64,000 nucleotides of DNA from Candidatus Woesearchaeota archaeon (GCA_964372205.1 CAYJQB010000001.1:226967-290966), one strand, 5' to 3'. Positions 2,854 through 60,529 are shown, counted from the stretch's first letter. The notes: a model not told the origin generated them from the sequence alone. Program-made: numbers and translations.

Positions 2854-3459
2854 TTAAATATTTGCGCTTTGATTGGCACCAAGTCTTCTTCCTGTTTTCA
2901 TATTCTCAATTATAATTCCAACTCTCTTCATCCTTGTTTCAGGCCTCTTCGCATGAAGTAGCCATCTGAAATACATTCTCTTTTGAGATGGGGGAAGTTT
3001 TTCAAAATTCTCCTTGGCTGTTTTATTCTTCTTTTTTTCAAGCTCCGCCTTCAAATCCTCTGGCATATCAGGATTCTTAGGTATTCCATGATCATGCGGT
3101 TTCTTAGTCAAACCGAGTTCAAACATCTCTTTTCCAAAATCAGACATTTTCCCTTGAGAAATCATCTCTCTAGCTCTTGCAAAAGTGTTATCGCTCCATC
3201 TGCTTGTCTTTTTTCTCTTAACAAATGTAACTCCATACTTTTCATCATCTATTCTTTTCAACGTTGTATCAATCCATCCAAAACATATTGCCTCATTCAT
3301 AGCAATACTTTGATTGAACATTCCTTTTCCAGTATGTTTTTTGTATCTTATTAGCAGAACTCTATCTTCTTTCAAGTGATTCTTTTCAAGCCATGCTCTC
3401 CACTGCTCAACATTTTCACAAGTGATTTGTTTTATTTTCTCTTTATTATTCATCATCAT
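2854..3459 (-). CDS. YdeI/OmpD-associated (OmdA-domain) family protein
   Basis: W..WL..NH at N-terminus, CFGWID motif, C-terminal LPPSQKRMYFRWLLHAKRPETRMKRV typical of the YdeI/OmdA family. Confidence 0.55.
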   Translation of the reverse strand: MMMNNKEKIKQITCENVEQWRAWLEKNHLKEDRVLLIRYKKHTGKGMFNQSIAMNEAICFGWIDTTLKRIDDEKYGVTFVKRKKTSRWSDNTFARAREMISQGKMSDFGKEMFELGLTKKPHDHGIPKNPDMPEDLKAELEKKKNKTAKENFEKLPPSQKRMYFRWLLHAKRPETRMKRVGIIIENMKTGRRLGANQSANI

Positions 3460-32759: not shown

Positions 32760-33176
32760 CTATTGATTTTCTACGTAATTCTTGAAATTGTTCAAAATAG
32801 CCTGCCAGCCATTTCTTTGCATCTCAATAGAGTTTTCCATCTCAGGCTCAAAAGTTACCTTCACTCTAGTATCGCCATCTTCATTCTCACCGAACATGAC
32901 TTCCACTTTTCTTCCGTCATCCATAGTGTAAGAGATTATTTCATTTTCTTCAACTTCATCATAAACTCCTGAGAAATCAAACCCCGAATTCCCATCTTTT
33001 GATTCCATTCTATAAGTAAATCTTCCACCAACTTGCAAATCATTTTCAGCTCTAGGAGTATGCCAGTCTTCAGACGCATTATTCCATTGTTTTACATGTT
33101 CTGTCTGAGTATAGAATTCCCATACCCTTTCAAGAGGGGCATCAATTATGGTTTCGACAGTTATTTTTTCAGCCAT
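32760..33176 (-). CDS. SRPBCC superfamily protein (Aha1/ activator of Hsp90 ATPase-like)
   Basis: ITVETIIDAPLERVWEFYT...W motif and length 138 aa typical of AHSA1/SRPBCC. Confidence 0.6.
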   Translation of the reverse strand: MAEKITVETIIDAPLERVWEFYTQTEHVKQWNNASEDWHTPRAENDLQVGGRFTYRMESKDGNSGFDFSGVYDEVEENEIISYTMDDGRKVEVMFGENEDGDTRVKVTFEPEMENSIEMQRNGWQAILNNFKNYVENQ

Positions 33177-33223
33177 CTTTTGTTTTGTTTCTGAGTCTTT
33201 TTAAAATCTCGTAGTAATATTTA

Positions 33224-33562
33224 CTATTTCTTATTTTTTCTAGATTGTTTTTCGAGTATGCCTCTTACAGAAGGACTTACTTGTTTATCTTTCCTATGAA
33301 TACATCCAATCCAGCAACAAGGTCTTCGCATCCCTTCCTTGAGTTCACTAACAACTCTCCCAACATGCTCTTTTCTAGTATTATCTTGCTTTACAAAAGT
33401 AGTCCAACATATCCACTCGTTTCTTGCGAGAGGTGTAAGACCTTCCCACTTCTCCAGAGCCACTTTATCAGAACTAAGAGCTTTTCGTAAATCCTCTGGT
33501 AAATTATGCACAGTTCCTCCAGAGATTTCTTTGTTTGTCATACGATATATCATTCTTTCCAA
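33224..33562 (-). CDS. OmdA-domain (YdeI/OmpD-associated) protein
   Basis: LTPLARNEWICWTTFVKQDNTRKEHVGRVVSELKEG resembles the C-terminal domain of the 2854-3459 protein. Confidence 0.5.
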   Translation of the reverse strand: MERMIYRMTNKEISGGTVHNLPEDLRKALSSDKVALEKWEGLTPLARNEWICWTTFVKQDNTRKEHVGRVVSELKEGMRRPCCWIGCIHRKDKQVSPSVRGILEKQSRKNKK

Positions 33563-33585
33563 GATTTATAAGTTTTCCATCAAAA

Positions 33586-33700
33586 ATGCAAAAGTGTATT
33601 ACGCCCGGACCAAACACAGCACACTTTTGCATAATCACTGGGACTCGTATTGATTAGCTTATTTCTTTCTAGTGGCTAGGATTTTTAAGCATTCTCGAGA
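33586..33700. repeat. intergenic repeat copy A: 12-bp perfect hairpin enclosing a 14-nt copy of the tRNA-Ser 3' end, plus motif2 (gggactcgtattgattagctt) and motif3 (ggatttttaagcattctcgaga)
   Basis: atgcaaaagtgt / acacttttgcat inverted repeat; ttacgcccggacca identical to 38774-38787; motifs shared with copies B and C. Confidence 0.7.
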
Positions 33701-33768
33701 TGGAAGTGATATGTGATTATTTCACCTCAATCGGAAGATTTATATATAAGTAAGATATTCTTACCGGT

Positions 33769-34035
33769 ATGAAAATAGAGCTAACAAAAATAAGCAGTAA
33801 GGGACAAGTAGTCATACCTTTAGACGTGAGAAGAAAGCTTGCCCTTAAGGATGGAGAGACACTTGCAGTTTCTACTGAAGATGACTTAATTGTATTGAAA
33901 AAGGTAAAGAACCCTATGGAAGAAGATGATTTGCGTACTCTTAAGGAAATAAAAGAAGCTTGGAAAGAGATTGCACAAGGGAAATATAGAAAAATGAACA
34001 AAGAAGATTTTCTCAAAGAAATTGAGACCTGGTAA
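33769..34035 (+). CDS. AbrB/MazE/SpoVT-family antitoxin
   Basis: SKGQVVIPLDVRRKLALKDGETL swapped-hairpin motif. Confidence 0.7.
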   Translation: MKIELTKISSKGQVVIPLDVRRKLALKDGETLAVSTEDDLIVLKKVKNPMEEDDLRTLKEIKEAWKEIAQGKYRKMNKEDFLKEIETW

Positions 34036-34281
34036 ATGGTAGAATATATCTTTACAGAAAAATTTGAGAAGGAATTTAAAAAAGCAGACAATTCTATTAA
34101 AGAAAAAGCACGAAAACAAATAAAAAAGATACTTGAAGACCCAGAAACAGGAAAGCCATTAAGATATGACCTAAAAGGCGAGAGAACAGTCTATGTCAAA
34201 CCATTTAGAATAATATATTCGTTCTCGAATAACACAATTTACTTCCTACGATTTGAACATCGCAGCGAAGTTTATGATTAA
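34036..34281 (+). CDS. RelE/ParE family toxin
   Basis: YRIIYSFSNNTIYFLRFEHRSEVY C-terminal RelE consensus; start abuts antitoxin stop. Confidence 0.7.
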   Translation: MVEYIFTEKFEKEFKKADNSIKEKARKQIKKILEDPETGKPLRYDLKGERTVYVKPFRIIYSFSNNTIYFLRFEHRSEVYD

Positions 34282-34293
34282 TAACTAATCCGT

Positions 34294-34352
34294 GGGACTC
34301 TGATCGATTAGCTTCTTTTCTCTGATCTCTAGAATTTTTAAGGATTGTCGAC
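34294..34352. repeat. intergenic repeat copy B (motif2 plus motif3 only)
   Basis: gggactctgatcgattagctt ... gaatttttaaggattgtcgac, about 75% identical to the corresponding part of copy A. Confidence 0.6.
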
Positions 34353-34367
34353 TACTTCCAAGAAGAG

Positions 34368-34955
34368 TCACTCAAATCTCACATTTATTACGTAAGCCTC
34401 TCCGAGAAACAAATCATAACCCTCCCTATTGAGGGTTTTTTCAAATTCTTTTATTTTTGTCTTTGGAGGAGAGTCGCAACGATCTAATCTCCTTTTTAAG
34501 GCCAACACTCCTCCTCGGTCTGCCCTTTGCTCATTATCCGAAATCGGAACGTTTGTGAATTCAAGATTAACCTTGCTTGAAGCATTATCCAGAACTTCTA
34601 ACATTGCTTTTTCTCCGACCAGAGCTTCTAGAGCGTGCGCCTCTTCATGACCTCTAACAAATTCTGTGTGAAGTCCATCCATTCCAGAGCGGTAGGAAGT
34701 TCTTAAGGTAAGGCTTATTAGCTCTTCATTATTCCCGGCTACTACGCGTGTGGCTATACATAAACCAGTTGTTTGCATGTCTGATAAAATATTGTCTATA
34801 GTTTTCAATACAGGTTTTAAAGAAGGTCTCTCTGCTTTCATTCTATAGAGAAAGTAATTTCCAACAGCTCCATCATCATAATAACGTACATCAACACCTC
34901 CAGGTACAGGGACTTCAATTCCTAATCTTTCAAGATAAATTGTGTTTGTCATCAT
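34368..34955 (-). CDS. hypothetical HExxH-motif protein (possible small metallopeptidase, ImmA/IrrE-like?)
   Basis: RGHEEAHALE... with a Glu ~20 residues downstream; local GC visibly higher than surroundings. Confidence 0.35.
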   Translation of the reverse strand: MMTNTIYLERLGIEVPVPGGVDVRYYDDGAVGNYFLYRMKAERPSLKPVLKTIDNILSDMQTTGLCIATRVVAGNNEELISLTLRTSYRSGMDGLHTEFVRGHEEAHALEALVGEKAMLEVLDNASSKVNLEFTNVPISDNEQRADRGGVLALKRRLDRCDSPPKTKIKEFEKTLNREGYDLFLGEAYVINVRFE

Positions 34956-35041
34956 TATTCTGTTCTTATCAAGAGGACGAGTTTAATATTCATATTTAAA
35001 ACTTTCTATGTTGTTACTATTATTAAGAAACAAAAATGGTA

Positions 35042-35151
35042 TTACGCCCAGACCAAACCGAACCCTATCATGCGATATTTTAGGGACGGTTTTATGTACA
35101 AGTTATATACAAGATTTGCTAGACTTTTAGGATTTTTAAGGATTGTCGAGA
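35042..35151. repeat. intergenic repeat copy C: degenerate copy of tRNA-Ser 3' end (ttacgcccagacca, one mismatch) plus motif3 ggatttttaaggattgtcgaga
   Basis: Aligned by eye with copy A and with the tRNA-Ser 3' end. Confidence 0.65.
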
Positions 35152-35164
35152 TAGAATTGATGGA

Positions 35165-35923
35165 TTAAATATACCCTTTCCATTCTTCCTCACAAGGAAT
35201 TTCAAATTTCTCAAACGGGGCCTTAGTCTTCAATGGGAAGAATAAAGACTGGTTTATGTATGCTCTTGAATCCAAATGTGCTAGCAAATTTGCTATAAAG
35301 TAAGCGAAACTTAGATTTGGGATCTCATATCCTTTAAGTGAAAATGGTTTATGTTCCCACCAAACATGCAGAAATTTTTCATCTCCTAAGGCGATGTTGC
35401 TAACTTTTTTAAAAATTGAACAATCAGTTATGTTAAAATAATCTTTTAAAGAGTCTCGAATTGTATTGATAGTGAGAAAGCATTCATAACAAAACAAGCC
35501 ATTGAATATTTTATCATTTTGTGCAACAGTTTCTATTTTTTTGCCATTTTGTTCGCATTTCTTAATAGTTTCTTTGAGATCTGAACCATTCCTAATTGAG
35601 GTCTTAACTTCGATTATAGCTCTGACTATATTCGCAGGAACAATTACAAAATCTCCTTCTGAGAATAAAACAGGTGAACGATCATCGTAGATTATTAGAT
35701 CTATTTGGTTGGTTAATTCTTTTTTTGGATTTATTACAAATCCTGTTCCAATTGAGAGATTTTTTGGCAAAAATCGAGAGATAACATTCTTTAATACAGC
35801 CTCTTTATATCTCCCATCTTCTCCCCAGTGAGCCTCTCCTATCAGACTCCTTACTCTATCCTTAACAGCAATTAATTCTTTGTTTATTGATTCATAAAAA
35901 TTTTTGAAATCTTGTTCTACCAT
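35165..35923 (-). CDS. predicted PD-(D/E)xK-fold nuclease-like protein
   Basis: QIDLIIYDD ... FVIVPANIVRAIIEVKTS gives the D...(D/E)xK arrangement with flanking hydrophobic strands; 252 aa; 7-nt overlap with upstream gene. Confidence 0.45.
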   Translation of the reverse strand: MVEQDFKNFYESINKELIAVKDRVRSLIGEAHWGEDGRYKEAVLKNVISRFLPKNLSIGTGFVINPKKELTNQIDLIIYDDRSPVLFSEGDFVIVPANIVRAIIEVKTSIRNGSDLKETIKKCEQNGKKIETVAQNDKIFNGLFCYECFLTINTIRDSLKDYFNITDCSIFKKVSNIALGDEKFLHVWWEHKPFSLKGYEIPNLSFAYFIANLLAHLDSRAYINQSLFFPLKTKAPFEKFEIPCEEEWKGYI

Positions 35924-36597
35924 TTTTCGTATTGTAAGTTTTCTATATTTACATCCATTTTTTCTTTTTTAATTATCATATCCCATACTATGTACTTTAC
36001 ATCTTTTACCTTAAAATCATAATTATATGGAATGATTATTTTTTGATTTGGAAGAATTTTTCCTTTTTGGACAGGAGCTGTATATAAAACAGTATCCCCT
36101 ATAGTGAAGATAACATCCAAGTTCACATATTCACTATAATCATCTCCTATATTTGATAACACTATCTCTCCCGAAGACGTATGAATTGTGTCATCTAATG
36201 TTTCCTCTAAAGAATTAAACAATGGAATGGATTTAGAAACACAAGTCCCAAATGTGCTTGAGCCACAACCCAATAACTGAGCTGAATAGGCGGCCAGAAT
36301 TATAGAATCTTTTGTTATGGTGATTGCATGATAATCTCCTCTTTCATTGATCTTGTAATATTCAATTTTTGCGCTATTAACTTCCAAAGGAGATGGATCT
36401 TCTCCATCTAAATATCTATCTCCATCAGTGTTTGGGTTTGTTAAGTTTGTTCCCAAATTGAGTTCTTCTTCATCACTTAATCCATCTTTGTCAGTGTCCA
36501 TTGGTTTGCTCACTAGAAAAATTATAGCTAACAAGGCTACCAAGATAATTACAATTAAGCATAGAATCCAGTGAAACAAATCACCCTTTCTATTCAT
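35917..36597 (-). CDS. membrane-anchored protein with thrombospondin-type-3-like Ca-binding repeats (likely start MNRKGDLFHW)
   Basis: TM helix ILCLIVIILVALLAIIFLV followed by DTDKDGLSDEEE and NPNTDGDRYLDGED acidic D-x-D-x-D-G repeats; ATGA start/stop overlap with the upstream small peptide gene. Confidence 0.5.
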   Translation of the reverse strand: MNRKGDLFHWILCLIVIILVALLAIIFLVSKPMDTDKDGLSDEEELNLGTNLTNPNTDGDRYLDGEDPSPLEVNSAKIEYYKINERGDYHAITITKDSIILAAYSAQLLGCGSSTFGTCVSKSIPLFNSLEETLDDTIHTSSGEIVLSNIGDDYSEYVNLDVIFTIGDTVLYTAPVQKGKILPNQKIIIPYNYDFKVKDVKYIVWDMIIKKEKMDVNIENLQYEKW

Positions 36598-36758
36598 TTT
36601 CCATATGCTCCAAAAACAACGGCTAGTACAATCAGTATTCCCATTATTCCGCCAAATAACCAACCAAACACACTTCCAAAAGCAGTGATTATAGCTGTTG
36701 CGGCTCCAGTGGACAAAACTATTATGGCCATTATTATTGTTATTATCAATTTTTCCAT
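36594..36758 (-). CDS. 54-aa Gly-rich double-TM peptide (GlsB/YeaQ/YmgE-like transglycosylase-associated family?)
   Basis: Hand-found ORF MEKLIITIIMAIIVLSTGAATAIITAFGSVFGWLFGGIMGILIVLAVVFGAYGK with GGAGGT Shine-Dalgarno-like sequence 8 nt upstream; translationally coupled to the next gene. Confidence 0.45.
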   Translation of the reverse strand: MEKLIITIIMAIIVLSTGAATAIITAFGSVFGWLFGGIMGILIVLAVVFGAYGK

Positions 36759-36940
36759 TTTACCTTACCTCCATTTTATTTCTAGTGAATAAGAAGTAGC
36801 CTCAGAGGATACCCTCCAGGGTTACCTCTTTTTCTTTCAAAACGTGGTTTGAGAGATATTTATATTTTTCTACTGGTTCTTTAACTAACTTGTATAAATT
36901 TTGTACATAAAAACAGCCCACGAGATGTTTATAACCAGAT

Positions 36941-38617
36941 CTAATTTTCTTGATAAATATTTTCAAAAGAATTGTTTGGATTTCTTCTCACCAAACGAAT
37001 ATAATCTGCTTTTATTTTTCTGGACATATTCTGAACAAATTGAGAATTTTTAAAGATGTTTTTATAGTCCAAAAAACCATCATTTTGTTCAATATATTCT
37101 TCAAAGTCGATATTTATATCTGGAGTAATTAGCTCCCAAACCTTCTTAATAGTTGCAACAAATTTGGCTTTGTTTGTTGTTATACACTCTAAAGGATCAT
37201 CAATAATTTGCTTTCCAAGGTTGTCTTCTCTCAATATCTCTGCTAATACGTGCGAGAAGAAAAAGATGGAAAGCCCGTAGTCTCTTAAATGTTCATTATT
37301 TAACAAACCTGCTTCGTTTTTAACAAGGTCATATACGACCTTCCCAAGATATATTTTATTCGCAGAGATATTTCTTGAGAAAATATGATTATATTCTTCT
37401 CCAAATAATTTTTGTTTAAGATGGGTATTATGGGGTTTACCTAAATAGAAGGCCATAATTACCTGAGCAGCAAAATCTTTTTCAATTATCTCAGCTTCCG
37501 AGTTCAATTCCTCTCCTCGCTTCCTTCTGTAAAGAATATTTCCTTCAAATGTACGTTCAAACTCAGTCTGAATGGTTTTTTGCACAGAATCGTTTGATTT
37601 TAAATCCTTCAAACTTATGGAGTTTTGATTGTTAGTATAGAAAGTTATTTTCTTTACAAGAGGAGAAGTAGGGTTCAATTTTATTATTTTAACAAGGATA
37701 AAAAGATTATTGCTCAATGAATCTCTATTTTCAAAAAATGTTAACATTGATTGACATCCGTTGATTAAGGAATATCCTCCAAGAGTAATTTTGTGATTTG
37801 TTAGGTCCTCAGAGAAGTCTCTACAAATTATTGTAATGCCATTATGATACATAAAAAAATTGTTATGTTCTGAAGTATCCAAGATAGTTTTTTTGATGGC
37901 TTTGTTTACCCTGGTATTCCCAACACCATATCTTACATTTTTATAAAAAAGAGTCCTATCTTGAATACCTTCAAGTTTGACTAACTCCTTTGCTTTAATT
38001 GCATAGGTCCTAACAAGAGTACCATCAGGGAGGTTATATTCTATTTTTGAGGGATTTTGGATTGAAAGGTCTTTTTGAGGGAAGTTTGTTTCTTGGTCTG
38101 CAAAATAAGTATACTTGTCAAATAAAATATTAGAGTCATAACCCTCAAAATCAGTTATTGTGTTTATATAATCTTTCGCAGGAGAATTAAATATTTTGTT
38201 TGTAGTAAAAATTAGAACTTTTTTGTAATGAGTCTTTTCAGACAAGTTATTTCTTTCTACAAGAGATTTTAGCTCTCTATTTGCATCACTGTTGAGTAGA
38301 TTATTTATAGAATCACTACCTTCAAACCAGATCCTTGTTCCAACAAAATTTCTTATGTCTCTATCTCCTTGATCTTGGTTGTTGTTAGGGCTGAATTTTG
38401 ATTGAAATAAGTAAATTGTTTCTTCATCATCATCTACATATAATCCATCAATTCCTTTATCATTTCTATGATCGCACACACTATCTATTGCTTCTAAAGG
38501 ATCAAGCCTAAAAAAATTTTCAAGAAACCATATCAAAAATGCAGAAGACTCTTCTCTACCCGAACTATATTCAGAGACCTCATCCCTCATCCGATTATAG
38601 AATTCAGATTGATTCAT
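36941..38617 (-). CDS. AIPR-family abortive-infection-like protein
   Basis: 558 aa; N-terminal FLIWFLENFFRLDPLEAIDSVCDHRNDKGIDGLYVDDDEETIYLFQSKFS resembles the Mrr-like DG-IDG...Q-K N-terminal nuclease module of AIPR proteins. Confidence 0.55.
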   Translation of the reverse strand: MNQSEFYNRMRDEVSEYSSGREESSAFLIWFLENFFRLDPLEAIDSVCDHRNDKGIDGLYVDDDEETIYLFQSKFSPNNNQDQGDRDIRNFVGTRIWFEGSDSINNLLNSDANRELKSLVERNNLSEKTHYKKVLIFTTNKIFNSPAKDYINTITDFEGYDSNILFDKYTYFADQETNFPQKDLSIQNPSKIEYNLPDGTLVRTYAIKAKELVKLEGIQDRTLFYKNVRYGVGNTRVNKAIKKTILDTSEHNNFFMYHNGITIICRDFSEDLTNHKITLGGYSLINGCQSMLTFFENRDSLSNNLFILVKIIKLNPTSPLVKKITFYTNNQNSISLKDLKSNDSVQKTIQTEFERTFEGNILYRRKRGEELNSEAEIIEKDFAAQVIMAFYLGKPHNTHLKQKLFGEEYNHIFSRNISANKIYLGKVVYDLVKNEAGLLNNEHLRDYGLSIFFFSHVLAEILREDNLGKQIIDDPLECITTNKAKFVATIKKVWELITPDINIDFEEYIEQNDGFLDYKNIFKNSQFVQNMSRKIKADYIRLVRRNPNNSFENIYQEN

Positions 38618-38776
38618 AAATACAAATCAGTAATTGAACTTTAAATGAATTTCTATAATTGACTTTTTAGCTCTTTTACCAGCAAATTTCTTTTGTCATT
38701 TATGGAAAATTATCAAGAAATAACTTGTATAAAACTTGTATATACTCCGTCCCATGATTATCGCACAATAGGGTTA

Positions 38777-38861
38777 CGCCCGGACCAGGATTTGAACCTG
38801 GGAATCGCTTGCGCGAAACGGGATTAGCAATCCCGCGCAGTAACCGCTGTGCCATCCGGGC
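38777..38861 (-). tRNA. tRNA-Ser (anticodon GCT), long variable arm
   Basis: Hand-folded: acceptor GCCCGGA/TCCGGGC, anticodon stem CGGGA/TCCCG with loop TTGCTAA, long variable arm, T-arm CCAGG-TTCAAAT-CCTGG, discriminator G. Confidence 0.85.
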
Positions 38862-38907
38862 ATAAATTGATTAGAAAAAGATTGCTTTTAAGTCTTATTA
38901 TAGATTC

Positions 38908-39348
38908 TTATTTACTTCTCTTTTTTGCTAGAGCAAGTTTCCCTGCACCGAATGCAGCAAGCACTACCAAACAAATGAATATCAACAAATCTCTTTCAGA
39001 TCCTGCAGTTATTCCATTAGGTATTTGCATAAACAAGAATGCTACACCAATAACAACCATCAATGGATAAGTTACCCAAGGGAATCCCCCTCCGATAATC
39101 AATGCTAGTCCAAACACAACTTCAACAATTCCAACTATAATCCCAACCCATCCAGGCAATCCGAAAGGACCAAATCCTCCAGTCAATTTAGGATATCCAT
39201 GATATACAAATATGAAACCAATCCAAAGTCTCAAGGCCAATAATGCCCATCCTCTCAAACTCTCTTTTCTCATCGTTTTTTGTAATCTCCAAGCTTTAAA
39301 AATCTTTTTATGAAAAGTATATAAACCTTGAATCATTAAGACAGTCAT
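38908..39348 (-). CDS. DoxX-family membrane protein
   Basis: WALLALRLWIGFIFVYHGYPKL motif and four TM helices. Confidence 0.6.
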   Translation of the reverse strand: MTVLMIQGLYTFHKKIFKAWRLQKTMRKESLRGWALLALRLWIGFIFVYHGYPKLTGGFGPFGLPGWVGIIVGIVEVVFGLALIIGGGFPWVTYPLMVVIGVAFLFMQIPNGITAGSERDLLIFICLVVLAAFGAGKLALAKKRSK

Positions 39349-42805: not shown

Positions 42806-43489
42806 ATGTACATAATAGGGGTGGACGATGCCGGAAGAGGTCCTTTAATTGGTCCAATGGTTTTAGCAGGGGTTTTGATAAAAACAGCAGACCAGGATTT
42901 CTTGAAAGAATCAGGAGTAAAAGACTCCAAAATGCTCACTCAGGAAAAACGTCTTGCTCTCGATGAATTAATCAAATCAAAATCCCTTGGATATAAAGCA
43001 GTTCTAGTTCCTCCAATCGAAATCGATGATGCAGTTCTCTCAGGAAGAAACTTAAACAATCTGGAAGCAATAAAATGTGCTGAAGTAATAGACTCCTTGA
43101 ATACAGAAGACATGCATGATAAAGAGATAAAGGTTATTGTAGACTGTCCATCTCCAAACACAAAAGCTTGGCAAGCTGTTCTCATCTCACATATAAAATA
43201 TTCTAAAAATCTAAAGATAAAATGTGAGCATAAAGCAGATGCGAATCATCCGTGTGTTTCAGCAGCATCTGTTTTGGCAAAATTAGCAAGAGAAGAAGCT
43301 GTAGCAGAAATCAAATCTCAATATGGGAATATAGGTTCAGGTTATCTAACAGACCCAGTAACTCAAGCATTCATAAAAGAAAAAAGCGCAGAACTTGAAA
43401 ACTCAGGCATATTCAGAAAATCATGGTCTACTTGGACTAATCTTGTCGCAGAAAAACAACAGAAGAAACTATTCGGGATATTCTTCTAG
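42806..43489 (+). CDS. rnhB: ribonuclease HII
   Basis: IIGVDDAGRGPLIGPMV N-terminal catalytic motif and DxxS...D region of RNase HII. Confidence 0.8.
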   Translation: MYIIGVDDAGRGPLIGPMVLAGVLIKTADQDFLKESGVKDSKMLTQEKRLALDELIKSKSLGYKAVLVPPIEIDDAVLSGRNLNNLEAIKCAEVIDSLNTEDMHDKEIKVIVDCPSPNTKAWQAVLISHIKYSKNLKIKCEHKADANHPCVSAASVLAKLAREEAVAEIKSQYGNIGSGYLTDPVTQAFIKEKSAELENSGIFRKSWSTWTNLVAEKQQKKLFGIFF

Positions 43490-44341
43490 TTTTTTCATCG
43501 CTAGCTTTATTGATTTGGAATTAGACGAAAATACTTTCCAAGGATTTTTCTCAAGATATCTTGAAATGCTTTTTATTGTATATTTATCAAATTTAAAATC
43601 TGGTTTAAGCTCATTCCAAGAGAGAGGCATTGCGATTGTTCCAGGCTCTTTTGCTCTTAATGAATAAGGCACGACTTTTAGTTGAGCTCTTGCGTTTCTC
43701 AAATAATCAATGAAAACTCTCCCTTTTCTCTTATTTATTCTCTGTTCTGTTGTGAACTTGTCAGGATTTATTTTTTCAATTATCTCAGCTATTCTTCTCG
43801 AAAACTTCTTTGTTTCATTAAACGTGACGTCTCTCTTTATAGGCACAATTATGTGAAAGCCCTTCTGACCGGTTGATAACAAATAACTCTTTAATTCTAG
43901 GGAGTCAAGAATCTTTTTTACTGCATTCGTTGCCTGAACTGCATCAGAAAGTTTTTTCTCATTCGGAGGATCAATGTCCCATACAACAACCTCCGGATAA
44001 TCAATTTTGTCAATCCTTGACAGCCAATGATGAAAAATCAGAGTATCTTGATTAGCAAGGTATACTAAAGTGTCTTTATCATTGCATACAACATATTCAG
44101 TTCCATTGATTTTCTTTGTTTTAATCCACTTAGGAAAATACCCCCCAGCATTTTTCTGATAGAAACACATTTTTCCAGCACCTTCAACACATCTCTCAAG
44201 AGCAATAGGTCTATCTTTCACATAAGGAAGAATTTTGTTTGAAACTTTAATGTAATAATTAATTACATCTTTTTTGGTTATCTTTGATTTAGGATAGATA
44301 ATCTTGTCAGGATGAGTGATTTCTACTTTTCCGATTTTCAT
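43469..44341 (-). CDS. LigD-type polymerase/primase (PrimPol) domain protein, stand-alone
   Basis: ITHPDKIIYP...ITKKDVINYY...DRPIALERC...FYQK motifs as in the NHEJ LigD Pol domain. Confidence 0.65.
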   Translation of the reverse strand: MKIGKVEITHPDKIIYPKSKITKKDVINYYIKVSNKILPYVKDRPIALERCVEGAGKMCFYQKNAGGYFPKWIKTKKINGTEYVVCNDKDTLVYLANQDTLIFHHWLSRIDKIDYPEVVVWDIDPPNEKKLSDAVQATNAVKKILDSLELKSYLLSTGQKGFHIIVPIKRDVTFNETKKFSRRIAEIIEKINPDKFTTEQRINKRKGRVFIDYLRNARAQLKVVPYSLRAKEPGTIAMPLSWNELKPDFKFDKYTIKSISRYLEKNPWKVFSSNSKSIKLAMKKLEEYPE

Positions 44342-44913
44342 TTTTTCTTCTTTCCTCTTGCAATCTGCTCAAGAGTTTTTCCAGACTTTACAGACTTATT
44401 TTCTCCAGCAATCTTCTTATTTGCAAAATCATCTTTCATTTTGAATAACAGCCAGTTTTTGTTTTGTCCTTTAAATCTTATTAGTGCATAAGCTCCATTC
44501 AGTTTCTTCCCTTCAAGAAACACTTCTATCATCCCCATTTCATAAGACTTCTTCATGTCAATAGGAGTTTCTTTTTCTCCTTTGAGGTTTATGAATTTAC
44601 CTTTGTCCCAGAGCATAACAGTTCCAGCTCCGTAATTTCCTTCAGGAATAATGCCTTCAAAGTTTCCATAGTCCATTGGATGTTCCTCTGTTTCAACAGC
44701 GAGCCGTTTATCGGTAGGATTATTAGAAATTCCCTTAGGCACAGCCCAGGATTTTAGCGCTCCTTCTATTTCTAATCTAAAATCATAATGTAACTGTGAA
44801 GCATCATGTTTCTGAACAACAAATACTCCTTTCTTCCCAGAGCTTTTCTTCACTTTCCATTTCGGCTCAGGAGTCTTATCGAATTTCCTCTTTTTTTCAT
44901 ATACTGTTGGCAT
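44338..44913 (-). CDS. LigD-type 3'-phosphoesterase domain protein, stand-alone
   Basis: FVVQKHDASQLHYDFRLE...LKSWAVPKG...EHPMDYGNFEGIIPEGNYGAGTVMLWD matches LigD PE domain motifs; 4-nt overlap with Pol gene. Confidence 0.7.
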   Translation of the reverse strand: MPTVYEKKRKFDKTPEPKWKVKKSSGKKGVFVVQKHDASQLHYDFRLEIEGALKSWAVPKGISNNPTDKRLAVETEEHPMDYGNFEGIIPEGNYGAGTVMLWDKGKFINLKGEKETPIDMKKSYEMGMIEVFLEGKKLNGAYALIRFKGQNKNWLLFKMKDDFANKKIAGENKSVKSGKTLEQIARGKKKK

Positions 44914-59629: not shown

Positions 59630-60529
59630 TTAAAGATTACTATGGGCTTGAGGGGGAATAAAGTGCTTCCTCCTCCCTTTTCCATTTTTGATATTCCAGT
59701 ACTTTCTGAACTCGCAAAGTGCCCCCTCGATATTAGTTATAGAAAGATATGGATAATTTGAAAATGCTTTCTCATACGCAATGCTTTCCCATTTTTCTGA
59801 AAGAGAATCTTTTTGCATCTCATATAGCTCATACAGCCTATGCTTAACTTCTTTATTGCTTAATTTCTTTCCATAGATTATTTCTAATCCCCACTTTGCT
59901 CCAGGCCCAACGTTCACAAAGTCGTTATCATTCCAGCCCTGCCTAAAGAATCCTAAGTAAGTCAAATCCGTCCATATTTCACACGCAAGGAACGGACCAA
60001 CCATCGGAATTCTTTTTAATATCTCGAAAGACTCTTCAGGAGTGCTACTTTGGTCTATTCTTTTTATTATTTCACTAGAATTGTTGGAAAGAATTTTCAA
60101 ATTGTTTAGGACACTAACATGTTTATCTTCACCTTTTTTCCCTGAAATAATGTAAGCATTGTTGAACAAAGGTTTACCCAATTTTTTCATCCTATCGAAC
60201 TTTTTTAGGATTTCAGCTTTAACTCCATCGTCAAACTTCTTAAACGGCTCTATCTCCAATTCCTCATACAATCCGTGTCTGTTAAAAAATCTGTAAAATA
60301 CAACATTGAGAAGAATTGATTTCCTGTCACTCAATTTGTTTAGTTTTTTCAATAAATAAATGGTGCACTTGTCAAGCTCCCTATACATATTGATTACTTT
60401 ATATTTCTGTAGAATTTTATCCTCAGTCCAAGGGGAACGTTCTTTTAGAACAAATCTCTTATGCCAAATTAAATGTCTTCTGTAAATGAAATCAAAAAAC
60501 TCTTGTTTTAAATTTTCTCGCACAGGCAT
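59630..60529 (-). CDS. 299-aa protein resembling the alpha-glutamyl/putrescinyl thymine pyrophosphorylase (aGPT-Pplase) / DNA base hypermodification family; assignment tentative
   Basis: N-terminal FFDFIYRRHLIWHKRF...PWTEDKILQKYKVINMYRELDKCT resembles the conserved FxxERHxI...PWTxDxIL..Y.F.NVYRExD block of that family (from memory); start codon overlaps the nusA stop. Confidence 0.4.
   Translation of the reverse strand: MPVRENLKQEFFDFIYRRHLIWHKRFVLKERSPWTEDKILQKYKVINMYRELDKCTIYLLKKLNKLSDRKSILLNVVFYRFFNRHGLYEELEIEPFKKFDDGVKAEILKKFDRMKKLGKPLFNNAYIISGKKGEDKHVSVLNNLKILSNNSSEIIKRIDQSSTPEESFEILKRIPMVGPFLACEIWTDLTYLGFFRQGWNDNDFVNVGPGAKWGLEIIYGKKLSNKEVKHRLYELYEMQKDSLSEKWESIAYEKAFSNYPYLSITNIEGALCEFRKYWNIKNGKGRRKHFIPPQAHSNL

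What the first reader, a model, noticed from the sequence alone, without database searches (positions are those of the whole stretch)
33586..38861. tRNA-Ser-linked composite island with three copies of the tRNA 3' end, defence cargo and no integrase
The 14-nt sequence ttacgcccggacca, which is the 3' acceptor end of tRNA-Ser(GCT) plus 3 flanking nt, occurs three times. It occurs in the intact tRNA (38774-38787), at 35042-35055 with one mismatch, and at 33599-33612 where it sits in the loop of a perfect 12-bp hairpin. This is the pattern left by two successive site-specific integrations into the tRNA 3' end. Inferred insert 1 (about 33.6-35.0 kb) carries an AbrB-RelE pair and an HExxH protein. 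Inferred insert 2 (about 35.1-38.8 kb) carries a PD-(D/E)xK protein, a Ca-binding membrane protein, a small TM peptide and an AIPR-family Abi homologue. No integrase or recombinase ORF is present anywhere in the island. That is unusual. It suggests either decay, mobilisation in trans, or an unrecognised recombinase among the hypothetical proteins. The coding content differs in feel from the flanking housekeeping genes.
Basis: partly seen in the sequence, partly recalled or inferred. Interest (0 to 1): 0.8.

Follow-up and report, generated by a model that had tools for sequence, protein, structure and literature searches.

The report
Integrase-less cassette array at archaeal tRNA-Ser
A small archaeon carries, just after a serine tRNA gene, a stack of short inserted gene cassettes (a toxin-antitoxin pair and anti-virus genes) that lack their own insertion enzyme, a familiar kind of genomic island seen here in a little-studied group.

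Summary
TTACGCCCGGACCA, the 3' end of tRNA-Ser(GCT) plus TAA, occurs three times where 0.04 is expected.

The genome is a DPANN archaeon, close to Pacearchaeota and Woesearchaeota. Region 33.6-38.8 kb is a tRNA-anchored array of integrated cassettes. Each junction has a conserved element arm (P, about 100 nt), the tRNA-derived core, and an inverted-repeat partner arm (P'). The 12-bp "hairpin" is simply these two arms.

Related genomes support insertion:
- L018 carries an integrase-less homologue of insert 1 as an exact 1,158-bp insertion. L032 has the empty site, with flanks 90-100% identical.
- In L021, L023, L008 and L028 the same kinds of arm sit beside a DPANN tyrosine integrase gene, or its remnant, directly after the tRNA.
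- The MazE-ParE cassette is far less diverged between species (pS 0.19-0.41) than neighbouring chromosomal genes (pS 0.49-0.88), so it moved horizontally.

I found no integrase, Cas1 or transposase in the ORFs tested in the window. Integron attC sites, casposons and a split SSV-type integrase were tested and rejected.

Best reading: successive tyrosine-integrase integrations, two still delimited by intact cores plus one relic junction, left as non-autonomous cassettes that are mobilised in trans or decaying. This resembles CIME or tycheposon islands. It is a new variant of a known kind, of moderate interest.

The parts
38776..38862 (-). Intact tRNA-Ser(GCT), the integration target (attB side); no CCA encoded
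   Evidence: ARAGORN; Rfam tRNA 56.3 bits; 90-94% identical to tRNA-Ser(GCT) of related DPANN genomes
38774..38787 (-). Core copy C: tRNA 3' end (TGGTCCGGGCG) plus TAA
   Evidence: sequence read
38724..38773 (-). P' arm of the tRNA-proximal cassette (E2 type): CCCTATTGTGCGAT..GGGACGG..TACAAGTTTTATACAAG. It is the inverted repeat of 35063-35113. The TACAAG repeats resemble the motif upstream of integrase genes in L028 and L173
   Evidence: (I3, I9)
36941..38617 (-). AIPR / AbiU-like abortive-infection gene (cargo)
   Evidence: Pfam AIPR 1.7e-35; PADLOC AbiU 1.7e-38; homologues 58-67% identical in sources naming CPR bacteria, other bacteria and archaea, in different gene contexts
36889..36919 (-). 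Internal third copy of the GGGnnG..TGTACAAnnTTTATACAAG motif, without a core. Either a promoter/operator-like repeat or a relic P' arm between AIPR and the downstream genes
   Evidence: (I1)
36594..36758 (-). 54-aa hydrophobic (TM) peptide, cargo of unknown role
   Evidence: translation; no Pfam or PADLOC hit
35917..36663 (-). Membrane protein with a bacterial TSP3 (Ca-binding type) repeat, cargo
   Evidence: Pfam TSP3_bac 2.9e-05, just under the cut-off
35165..35923 (-). DUF6602, a NucC-like PD-(D/E)xK nuclease (cargo)
   Evidence: Pfam DUF6602 3.4e-22; PADLOC PD_DExK 9.8e-28, NucC 9e-18
35056..35161 (-). P arm of the tRNA-proximal cassette: R'' unit (TCGACAATCCTTAAAAATCC) plus E2-type inverted repeat
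   Evidence: nhmmer P-arm profile hit 35043-35160, E = 1.6e-07
35042..35055 (-). Core copy B (1 mismatch), the junction between the two delimited inserts
34956..35041 (-). P' arm of insert 1 (TACCATTTTTGTTTC...), similar to the P' arm after core 2 of L024
34368..34955 (-). 195-aa protein with an HEEAH motif and no known family. In L171 its 78%-identical homologue is a cassette of its own between two degenerate cores
34276..34370 (-). R' unit: a P arm whose core has been lost, a relic junction inside insert 1
   Evidence: nhmmer E = 6e-17, model positions 2-90 only; (D3, D4)
33769..34281 (+). MazE/AbrB antitoxin (33769-34035) and ParE/RelE toxin (34036-34281), a horizontally exchanged TA cassette
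   Evidence: Pfam; 93-98% aa identity and pS 0.19-0.41 against L024 and L018, while chromosomal neighbours show pS 0.49-0.88
33613..33710 (-). R unit: full E1-type P arm (TCGAGAATGCTTAAAAATCC..CTAATCAAT.CGAGTCCCAGTGATTATGCAAAAGTGT)
   Evidence: nhmmer E = 5.9e-29; conserved in L018, L024, L031 and L171
33599..33612 (-). Core copy A, the distal end of the array
33586..33632 (.). Perfect 12-bp inverted repeat around core A. It is the P arm paired with a P'-like arm, the palindromic att architecture of this element family
   Evidence: the same palindrome is seen between L031 P and L018/L024 P'
33563..33598 (-). P'-like remnant (TAATACACTTTTGCATTTTTGATGG...) outside core A. It matches the element-borne P' next to the tRNA in L018 and L024, and now lies upstream of the OmdA gene

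Best explanation
Window 33.6-38.8 kb is a tRNA-Ser(GCT)-anchored array of small, non-autonomous integrative cassettes in a DPANN (Pacearchaeota/Woesearchaeota-like) archaeal genome.

Proposed mechanism. Each cassette entered by site-specific recombination between two sites. One is the 3' end of the tRNA gene (core TGGTCCGGGCGTAA). The other is an element-borne attP carrying the same core between two inverted-repeat arms: about 26 nt in the E1 type and about 50 nt in the E2 type, plus a conserved outer P-arm segment of about 60 nt. The enzyme is a DPANN-specific tyrosine integrase of about 383 aa with N-terminus MKIDPYKHKERY. In related genomes it is encoded 110-140 nt downstream of the same tRNA end. 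Each new arrival uses the intact tRNA and pushes older cassettes outward.

This gives the order: tRNA | AIPR-TM-TSP3-DUF6602 | core B | 195-aa gene | relic junction R' | ParE-MazE | core A.

In this genome the integrase gene is missing from the array and from the ORFs tested in the 64-kb window. The cassettes are therefore integrase-less derivatives. They can move only if an integrase is supplied in trans (CIME-like), or they are slowly eroding.

Shown here: the repeats, the arm architecture, the precise insertion against an empty site in relatives, the association of the arms with integrase genes, and the horizontal exchange of the TA cassette.

Inferred: that the integrase acts on these arms, and that mobilisation in trans still occurs.
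For: - Repeats far above chance.
- Three copies of the P-arm profile, found only in the island.
- An inverted repeat next to cores B and C.
- L018 against L032: an exact 1,158-bp integrase-less insertion bounded by TGGTCCGGGCGTA, with flanks 90-100% identical. It carries ParE-MazE, the R arm and a homologue of the 195-aa protein.
- L024, the closest syntenic relative, has a different cassette set at the same tRNA (HicBA | 132 aa | ParE-MazE), with cores and arms.
- L171: the 204-aa homologue lies alone between two degenerate cores.
- A tyrosine integrase (PF00589) follows the tRNA directly in L021 and L040, both at tRNA-Ser(GCT), and in L023, which has an E1-like P' arm (CAGTGGGACTCG). It is truncated in L008. 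In L028 a 25-aa remnant sits behind an E2-like TACAAGTTTGATACAAG motif.
- The integrase family has at least 2,416 homologues; the source names that exist are from Nanoarchaeota or unclassified archaea.
- TA cassette pS 0.19-0.41 against 0.49-0.88 for neighbouring chromosomal genes.
- No integrase in the window: tblastn found nothing at E <= 10, and Pfam scans of about 40 ORFs found none.
Against: - No island-free or partly occupied allele of this same species was found.
- No circular or excised junction could be searched for, because no reads were available.
- The sequence outside core A is itself P'-like, so the original attB flank is not defined.
- Nobody has shown that this integrase family recombines these sites.
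- Whether the source genome encodes such an integrase elsewhere is unknown.
- The low divergence of the TA cassette rests on only 169 codons.
Confidence: 0.75

Rival explanations
1. Pure decay. The cassettes are immobile fossils of once integrase-bearing elements whose int genes were deleted. The TA module's similarity between species reflects transfer as part of larger elements, or homologous recombination between arrays, rather than trans-mobilisation of the small cassettes.
For: Integrase pseudogenes occur in relatives: 87 aa in L008 and a 25-aa remnant in L028. R' has lost its core and core 3 of L024 is degenerate. In the E2 cassette, AIPR sits where int sits in relatives, behind an int-type upstream motif.
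Against: The L018 insertion is precise, recent (flanks 90-100% identical to the empty L032 site) and already integrase-less, with both arms intact. P arms are conserved over about 100 nt across four genomes.
Confidence: 0.35
2. An integron-like array (CALIN): the junctions are attC sites and the cassettes are moved by an IntI-type integrase, as in the reported archaeal integrons.
For: The cassettes are small, with one gene or operon each. The cargo is TA and defence genes. The junctions are imperfect palindromes. Archaeal integrons, mostly CALINs, are reported in Nanoarchaeota (PMC9668308).
Against: No R''(RYYYAAC)...R'(GTTRRRY) pair occurs anywhere in 33000-39200 on either strand, and no such box at any junction. 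The repeated core is the tRNA 3' end and lies in the centre of the palindrome. The array is anchored in a tRNA gene. The linked integrase scores only 38 bits against the XerA/integron-integrase model, whose cut-off is 220.
Confidence: 0.04
3. A non-autonomous casposon-like transposon: terminal inverted repeats plus a 14-bp target-site duplication at a tRNA 3' end, moved by a Cas1 casposase. The casposon features are from my own knowledge of that family.
For: The tRNA-proximal cassette has about 50-nt inverted repeats next to 14-nt direct repeats at a tRNA 3' end.
Against: No Cas1 or PolB among the window ORFs tested. The same arm motifs lie beside tyrosine-integrase genes in relatives. The left repeat is offset 7 nt from the core. 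Insert 1 has no such terminal repeat beyond the att palindrome.
Confidence: 0.03
4. A recombinase is present but unrecognised. Candidates are the 195-aa HEEAH protein and the DUF6602 PD-(D/E)xK nuclease. Alternatively, an SSV-type integrase gene was split by integration.
For: The 195-aa gene occupies the tRNA-proximal position of insert 1, in the same orientation as int in relatives, and has no known family.
Against: It is absent from L024's equivalent unit, where a 132-aa gene takes its place, and shortened to 119 aa in L018. It is a separate cassette in L171. The family integrases are full-length and not interrupted by the att core. ORFs overlapping the cores show no integrase similarity. 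The AF2 model was uninformative, with pLDDT 35.
Confidence: 0.05
5. Ancestral, vertically inherited content whose repeats are chance matches or a local duplication.
For: No same-species empty allele was found.
Against: Repeat statistics. Empty against occupied site in L032 and L018. Different cassette sets at the same tRNA in L024, L018, L021 and L040. The TA cassette's pS is far below the genomic background.
Confidence: 0.02

Closest known systems
tRNA-linked genomic islands built by tandem site-specific integration ('accretion'), with integrase-less cis-mobilizable elements (CIMEs) of Streptococcus ICE families. The concept is from my own knowledge; the term appears in ICEberg 2.0, PMC6323972.
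   Same: The elements are flanked by att repeats and lack any recombinase. Their att arms are related to those of integrase-bearing relatives. They are stacked in tandem at one site, and mobilisation in trans is the expected route.
   Different: The host is a DPANN archaeon. The cassettes are very small (0.7-3.7 kb, one gene or operon each). The att arms are long inverted repeats. There is no conjugative partner, and trans-mobilisation is not demonstrated.
Tycheposon islands of Prochlorococcus (10.1101/2020.12.28.424599)
   Same: Tyrosine-recombinase elements integrate at tRNA genes. Neighbouring elements are separated only by a partial tRNA copy, and newcomers push older elements into the island. 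Degenerate remnants and extra partial tRNAs are present. The cargo includes defence genes.
   Different: Tycheposons are defined as carrying their own integrase and often a replication module. Here no integrase or replication gene is present, the host is archaeal and the integrase family is different.
Integrons and CALINs, including archaeal integrons (PMC9668308)
   Same: Arrays of small cassettes separated by imperfect palindromic recombination sites. TA and defence cargo. Arrays often lack the integrase and are thought to be mobilised in trans.
   Different: No attC R''/R' boxes. The recombination core is a tRNA 3' end in the centre of the palindrome. The platform is a tRNA gene, not attI. 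The integrase is not IntI-like.
Archaeal tRNA-integrating elements with SSV-type (partitioned) or pNOB8-type (intact) integrases. This distinction is from my own knowledge.
   Same: An archaeal host, a tRNA 3' end target, and direct repeats of the tRNA fragment.
   Different: The integrase genes in relatives are intact after integration, so they are not SSV-type. The window element has none at all.

Membership tests
tRNA-targeting tyrosine-integrase integrative element / genomic island | Direct repeats identical to the 3' end of an intact tRNA gene bound the insert | tested here: met
   Three copies, 0-1 mismatch, 0.04 expected; intact tRNA
tRNA-targeting tyrosine-integrase integrative element / genomic island | Element encodes its own integrase | tested here: not met
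   tblastn with the family integrase found no hit in the window at E <= 10; Pfam, PADLOC and NCBIfam scans of all island proteins found none. Integrase is present in relatives L021, L023 and L040.
tRNA-targeting tyrosine-integrase integrative element / genomic island | Empty site in related genomes with insertion exactly at the repeat | tested here: met
   Met for the homologous element: L018 (occupied, 1,158 bp) against L032 (empty). Not found for the window's own species.
Cis-mobilizable element (CIME-like, non-autonomous integrative element) | Flanked by att sites, has no recombination genes, and its att arms are related to those of an autonomous element | tested here: met
   P arms conserved across genomes. 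An E1-like P' arm lies beside int in L023, and an E2-like TACAAG motif lies beside int or its remnant in L028 and L173.
Cis-mobilizable element (CIME-like, non-autonomous integrative element) | Excision or integration when the integrase is supplied in trans | not testable with these tools
   Indirect support only: a recent, precise, integrase-less insertion in L018 and horizontal exchange of the TA cassette.
Tycheposon | Tyrosine (or serine) recombinase next to the tRNA, plus a replication module and cargo | tested here: not met
   No integrase, primase, helicase or polymerase in the island. Only the island-level pattern matches: tandem units separated by partial tRNA copies.
Integron / CALIN | attC sites with R''(RYYYAAC) and R'(GTTRRRY) boxes at the ends of an imperfect palindrome | tested here: not met
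   Zero R''...R' pairs on either strand of 33000-39200, and no box at any junction
Integron / CALIN | IntI-type integrase | tested here: not met
   The linked family integrase scores 38 bits against NF040815, cut-off 220. None is present in the window.
Casposon | Cas1 casposase (and usually PolB) within the element | tested here: not met
   No Cas1 or PolB domain in island or window ORFs tested
Casposon | Terminal inverted repeats abutting a 14-15-bp target-site duplication | tested here: inconclusive
   About 50-nt inverted repeats lie next to cores B and C, but are offset by 7 nt on one side. The same motifs accompany tyrosine integrases elsewhere.
SSV-type integrative element | attP lies inside the int gene, so integration splits int into two flanking fragments | tested here: not met
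   Family integrase genes are full-length and start 110-140 nt after the core. No int-like fragments flank the window cores.
Type II toxin-antitoxin (MazE/AbrB antitoxin with ParE/RelE toxin) | Adjacent small antitoxin and toxin genes matching both families | tested here: met
   PF04014 2.4e-09 and PF05016 1.3e-11; the genes abut at 34035/34036
AIPR / AbiU abortive-infection proteins | AIPR domain | tested here: met
   PF10592 1.7e-35; PADLOC AbiU 1.7e-38. Function was not tested.

The most novel reading that the evidence does not exclude
DPANN archaea may possess a tRNA-anchored, integron-like cassette system. Single genes or operons (TA modules, defence genes) would each be bounded by a palindromic P-core-P' junction of roughly 80-150 nt. 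A widespread, conserved DPANN tyrosine integrase acting in trans would capture, stack, shuffle and exchange them between species. The integrase-less array would then be a functional gene-capture platform rather than debris.
Probability: 0.3. Interest if true: 0.65.

Novelty: new variant of a known kind. Interest (0 to 1): 0.42.

Why it matters
DPANN archaea have tiny genomes and depend on hosts, and how they acquire genes is poorly understood. This locus, with its relatives, shows a concrete route: a conserved tyrosine-integrase family targets tRNA 3' ends. It also shows very small integrase-less cassettes, carrying toxin-antitoxin and anti-virus genes, that have moved between species and accumulate in arrays. 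If these cassettes are mobilised in trans, this is a compact gene-capture system comparable in role to integrons or tycheposons, but in archaea. The conserved att arms give a searchable signature for mapping it across DPANN genomes. As it stands, the mechanism class (tandem site-specific integration with non-autonomous derivatives) is well known.

Tried and rejected
1. Same-species empty or partly occupied alleles. Exact-protein look-ups for DoxX, OmdA, the 195-aa protein and ParE returned only contigs with the same arrangement.
2. Metagenome scan for tRNA+TAWTAC junctions. It returned only the L018, L024 and L008 contigs again, plus two unrelated loci.
3. Viral-contig scan for the non-tRNA form of the core (TTTGGTCCGGGCGT). 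The 112 hits were all chance-like: none had an integrase, island-protein similarity or matching arms.
4. AIPR homologue contexts (L169, L170). They share no neighbours or arms, so the E2 cargo is not a conserved unit.
5. AlphaFold model of the 195-aa protein from a 2-sequence alignment. Mean pLDDT was 35, which is unusable, so no fold search was run.
6. PDB sequence search with the family integrase found no hit.
7. Rfam scan of the island found only the tRNA.
8. Canonical attC test was negative.
9. Casposon and split-integrase readings were rejected.
10. One literature search was wasted on a badly chosen term.

Full report
**1. Observation**

ARAGORN and Rfam find one tRNA-Ser(GCT) on the minus strand at 38776-38862, with no encoded CCA. 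The 14-mer TTACGCCCGGACCA is the reverse complement of the last 11-12 tRNA bases plus TAA. It occurs at 33599-33612 and 38774-38787 exactly, and at 35042-35055 with one mismatch. With up to two mismatches allowed, 0.04 matches are expected in the window, and no shuffle gave three. Copy A sits in the loop of a perfect 12-bp inverted repeat, 33586-33597 against 33621-33632, with dG -10.5 kcal/mol and z = -3.2.

- MazE/AbrB with ParE/RelE;
- a 195-aa HEEAH protein with no family hit;
- DUF6602, a NucC-like PD-(D/E)xK protein;
- a TSP3-repeat membrane protein;
- a 54-aa hydrophobic peptide;
- AIPR/AbiU.

The flanks are small accessory genes (OmdA, AHSA1, zinc finger, DoxX, DUF5652, GNAT), not housekeeping genes. 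GC is only slightly lower in the island, 0.327 against 0.365.

**2.

Two further repeat systems are confined to the island within the 64 kb.

- A unit of about 80-100 nt (R, containing TCGAnAAT.CTTAAAAATCC ... CTAATCAAT.CGAGTCCCA..GATTATGCAAAAGTG) lies next to copy A at 33613-33710 and next to copy B (partial, 35118-35161). A third copy lies at 34276-34370, between ParE and the 195-aa gene, and has no adjoining core.
- An inverted repeat of about 50 nt (CCCTATyrTGCGAT..GGGACGG..TACAAGTTwTATACAAG) lies directly inside copies B and C, at 35063-35113 and 38724-38773. A partial third copy lies at 36889-36919, between AIPR and the downstream genes.

Read in tRNA orientation, the locus is:

tRNA-core C | P'(E2) - AIPR - (motif copy) - TM peptide - TSP3 protein - DUF6602 - P(R''+E2) | core B | P' - 195-aa gene - P(R', core lost) - ParE - MazE - P(R) | core A | P'-like remnant - OmdA.

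**3. Organism and comparative loci**

A scan of one genome per species with the 25-nt 3' end of the tRNA returned 45 loci. All are DPANN archaea labelled Pacearchaeota, Woesearchaeota, Nanoarchaeota and the like.

The decisive loci are these.

- **L018/L164 and L032.** In L018 (Nanoarchaeota H43-bin084) the tRNA-Ser is followed by a P' arm (TATTACACTTTTGCATTTTTCATGG), a 119-aa homologue of the C-terminal half of the 195-aa protein, ParE-MazE, the R arm and a second core at +1158. L032 is 90-100% identical in both flanks and has nothing between the tRNA and the downstream membrane-protein gene. The 1,158-bp integrase-less unit is therefore a precise insertion bounded by TGGTCCGGGCGTA.
- **L024/L163.** This is the closest syntenic relative and shares the tRNA-Met, GNAT and DoxX genes. 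Its array is tRNA | HicB-HicA | core 2 | 132-aa gene - R'-like - ParE-MazE | degenerate core 3. The same site thus holds a different cassette set.
- **L171.** The 78%-identical homologue of the 195-aa protein lies alone between two degenerate cores, with an E1-type P arm on one side and E2-type arms around it, followed by ParE-MazE. R' in the window is therefore a relic junction. Insert 1 is a fusion of two former cassettes.

**4. The enzyme**

In L021, which shares the divergent tRNA-Met/tRNA-Ser(GCT) arrangement seen in the window, a 383-aa protein starts 123 nt after the tRNA. It matches Phage_integrase at E = 4.9e-06 and the archaeal XerA model only weakly.

Homologues sit in the same position in other loci:
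- L023, behind an E1-like P' arm (...TTTTGGCATTTTCAGTGGGACTCG);
- L008, truncated to 87 aa;
- L028, a 25-aa remnant behind AGTACAAGTTTGATACAAGTT, the E2-type motif;
- L040, at tRNA-Ser(GCT), 28% identical;
- L173 and L175, next to intron-containing tRNAs, with similar P' arms and TACAAG-like repeats about 45 nt before the start codon. Their downstream cargo is defence-like: reverse transcriptase, AAA_5, radical SAM with a deoxyribosyltransferase, and ResIII with a methyltransferase.

The family has at least 2,416 members at E <= 1e-10. The best 120 are 63-100% identical to the L021 protein. The few that carry a source name are labelled Nanoarchaeota, Nanoarchaeia or archaeon. The genes are intact after integration, so this is not the SSV-type split-integrase arrangement.

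**5. att architecture**

Across the window, L018, L024, L031 and L171, the element side of each distal core is conserved over about 100 nt. The inner roughly 26 nt of this P arm (GAGTCCCAnnGAwwATGCAAAAGTG) is the inverted repeat of the P' arm found next to the tRNA (ACACTTTTGCATTTTTCATGGGGC). E2-type sites have the same layout with different, longer arms. In both types, GGGAC lies about 20 nt from the core.

At copy A the outer flank is itself P'-like, matching L018 and L024 in 22 of 24 positions. Copy A therefore looks like a cassette-cassette junction whose outer partner has been eroded down to the OmdA start. That is probably why the predicted "tRNA followed directly by OmdA" allele was not seen.

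**6. Mobility without an integrase**

| Comparison | Genes | Amino-acid identity | Synonymous difference (pS) |
|---|---|---|---|
| Window vs L024/L163 | MazE, ParE | 98% | 0.19-0.29 |
| Window vs L018/L164 | MazE, ParE | 93-95% | 0.31-0.41 |
| Window vs the same genomes | Chromosomal neighbours (DoxX, GNAT, a 203-aa protein, RNase HII, zinc-finger protein) | 24-79% | 0.49-0.88 |

The TA cassette has therefore been exchanged long after these lineages split, and each time it lies in the tRNA-Ser array with its R arm. Together with the recent, precise, integrase-less insertion in L018, this favours mobilisation in trans. Transfer within larger elements followed by decay, or homologous recombination between arrays, is not excluded.

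**7. No recombinase in the window**

tblastn with the family integrase finds nothing in the 64 kb at E <= 10. Pfam scans of the island proteins, the neighbours and 20 further mid-sized ORFs show no integrase, Cas1, PolB or transposase.

The 195-aa protein has only one non-identical homologue in the large protein database. It is dispensable in L024's equivalent unit, and it gave an unusable AlphaFold model with pLDDT 35. Nothing suggests it is a recombinase.

**8. Alternatives tested**

- **Canonical integron attC sites.** There is no RYYYAAC...GTTRRRY pair in 33000-39200 on either strand, and no box at any junction.
- **Casposon.** The inverted repeats plus 14-nt direct repeats at a tRNA end are reminiscent of one. 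However, no Cas1 is present and the same motifs accompany tyrosine integrases in relatives.
- **Chance or ancestral content.** This is contradicted.

**9. Cargo**

AIPR homologues are 58-67% identical across proteins that sources name as CPR bacteria (Moranbacteria), Syntrophorhabdaceae, Flavobacterium and archaea. They sit in unrelated defence-type neighbourhoods. The gene is therefore a widely transferred stand-alone defence gene, and the E2 gene set is not a conserved system.

**10. Comparison with known systems and verdict**

In mechanism, the locus works like a tRNA-linked island built by tandem tyrosine-integrase integrations, with non-autonomous CIME-like derivatives. At island level it resembles tycheposon islands, where elements are separated by partial tRNAs, newcomers push older ones inward, and remnants persist. 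Functionally it recalls integron CALINs, which are small TA and defence cassettes without an integrase. It fails the defining features of tycheposons (own integrase and replication module), integrons (attC, IntI), casposons (Cas1) and SSV-type elements (split int).

What is new is the host group, the very small cassette size, the long palindromic att arms and the evidence for inter-species exchange of an integrase-less cassette. I rate it a new variant of a known kind, of moderate interest.

The main gaps are three. There is no same-species polymorphism and no read-level evidence of excision. It is not known whether the source genome encodes the integrase elsewhere. There is no biochemical link between this integrase family and these arms.

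Noticed in passing
window 59630-60529 (-): A 299-aa protein with a strong match to HMUDK_hel, the 5-hmdU DNA kinase helical domain (2.4e-50). This domain is associated with phage DNA hypermodification. Here it lies next to ribosomal protein S7 and elongation-factor genes in an archaeal genome.
   Followed up: no
window 43469-44913 (-): Adjacent LigD primase-polymerase (290 aa) and LigD 3'-phosphoesterase (191 aa) genes, an NHEJ-type repair module in a small DPANN genome.
   Followed up: no
window 36889-36919: A third, core-less copy of the GGGnnG..TGTACAAnnTTTATACAAG motif between the AIPR stop and the TM-peptide gene. It may be a promoter or operator shared with integrase genes, or a relic junction that would split the tRNA-proximal insert into two cassettes.
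   Followed up: partly
L173 9700-10000: Upstream of the integrase, an intron-containing tRNA that ARAGORN missed is followed by core-P', then about 35 nt later by P-core-P'. This looks like an 'empty' minimal cassette of about 60 nt between two cores.
   Followed up: partly
window 36941-38617 and P0037, P0040, P0069, P0072: AIPR proteins 60-67% identical occur in proteins that sources name as Moranbacteria (CPR), Syntrophorhabdaceae, Flavobacterium and archaea. This indicates recent cross-domain transfer of the defence gene.
   Followed up: partly
L001, L166, L168, L172 (other assemblies of the same population): Several independent low-coverage contigs break inside the island: in the 195-aa gene, in ParE, or next to the R units. 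This could be low coverage (2-4x) or repeat- or heterogeneity-induced assembly breaks.
   Followed up: no
window 2854-3459 (-) and 33224-33562 (-): Two OmdA/YdeI-domain genes lie in the window. The one beside the island is a short, C-terminal-domain-only version, and its start lies only 36 nt from core A, inside P'-like sequence.
   Followed up: partly
L013, L014, L037, L040, L047 (tRNA 3' flanks): Other DPANN tRNAs with the same 3' end are followed by a different short palindrome (for example GACATAAGTGTCTCAG or TGTATCATAAATGATACAG). In L040 a distant integrase (28% identity) follows, suggesting further att-site types for related integrases.
   Followed up: no
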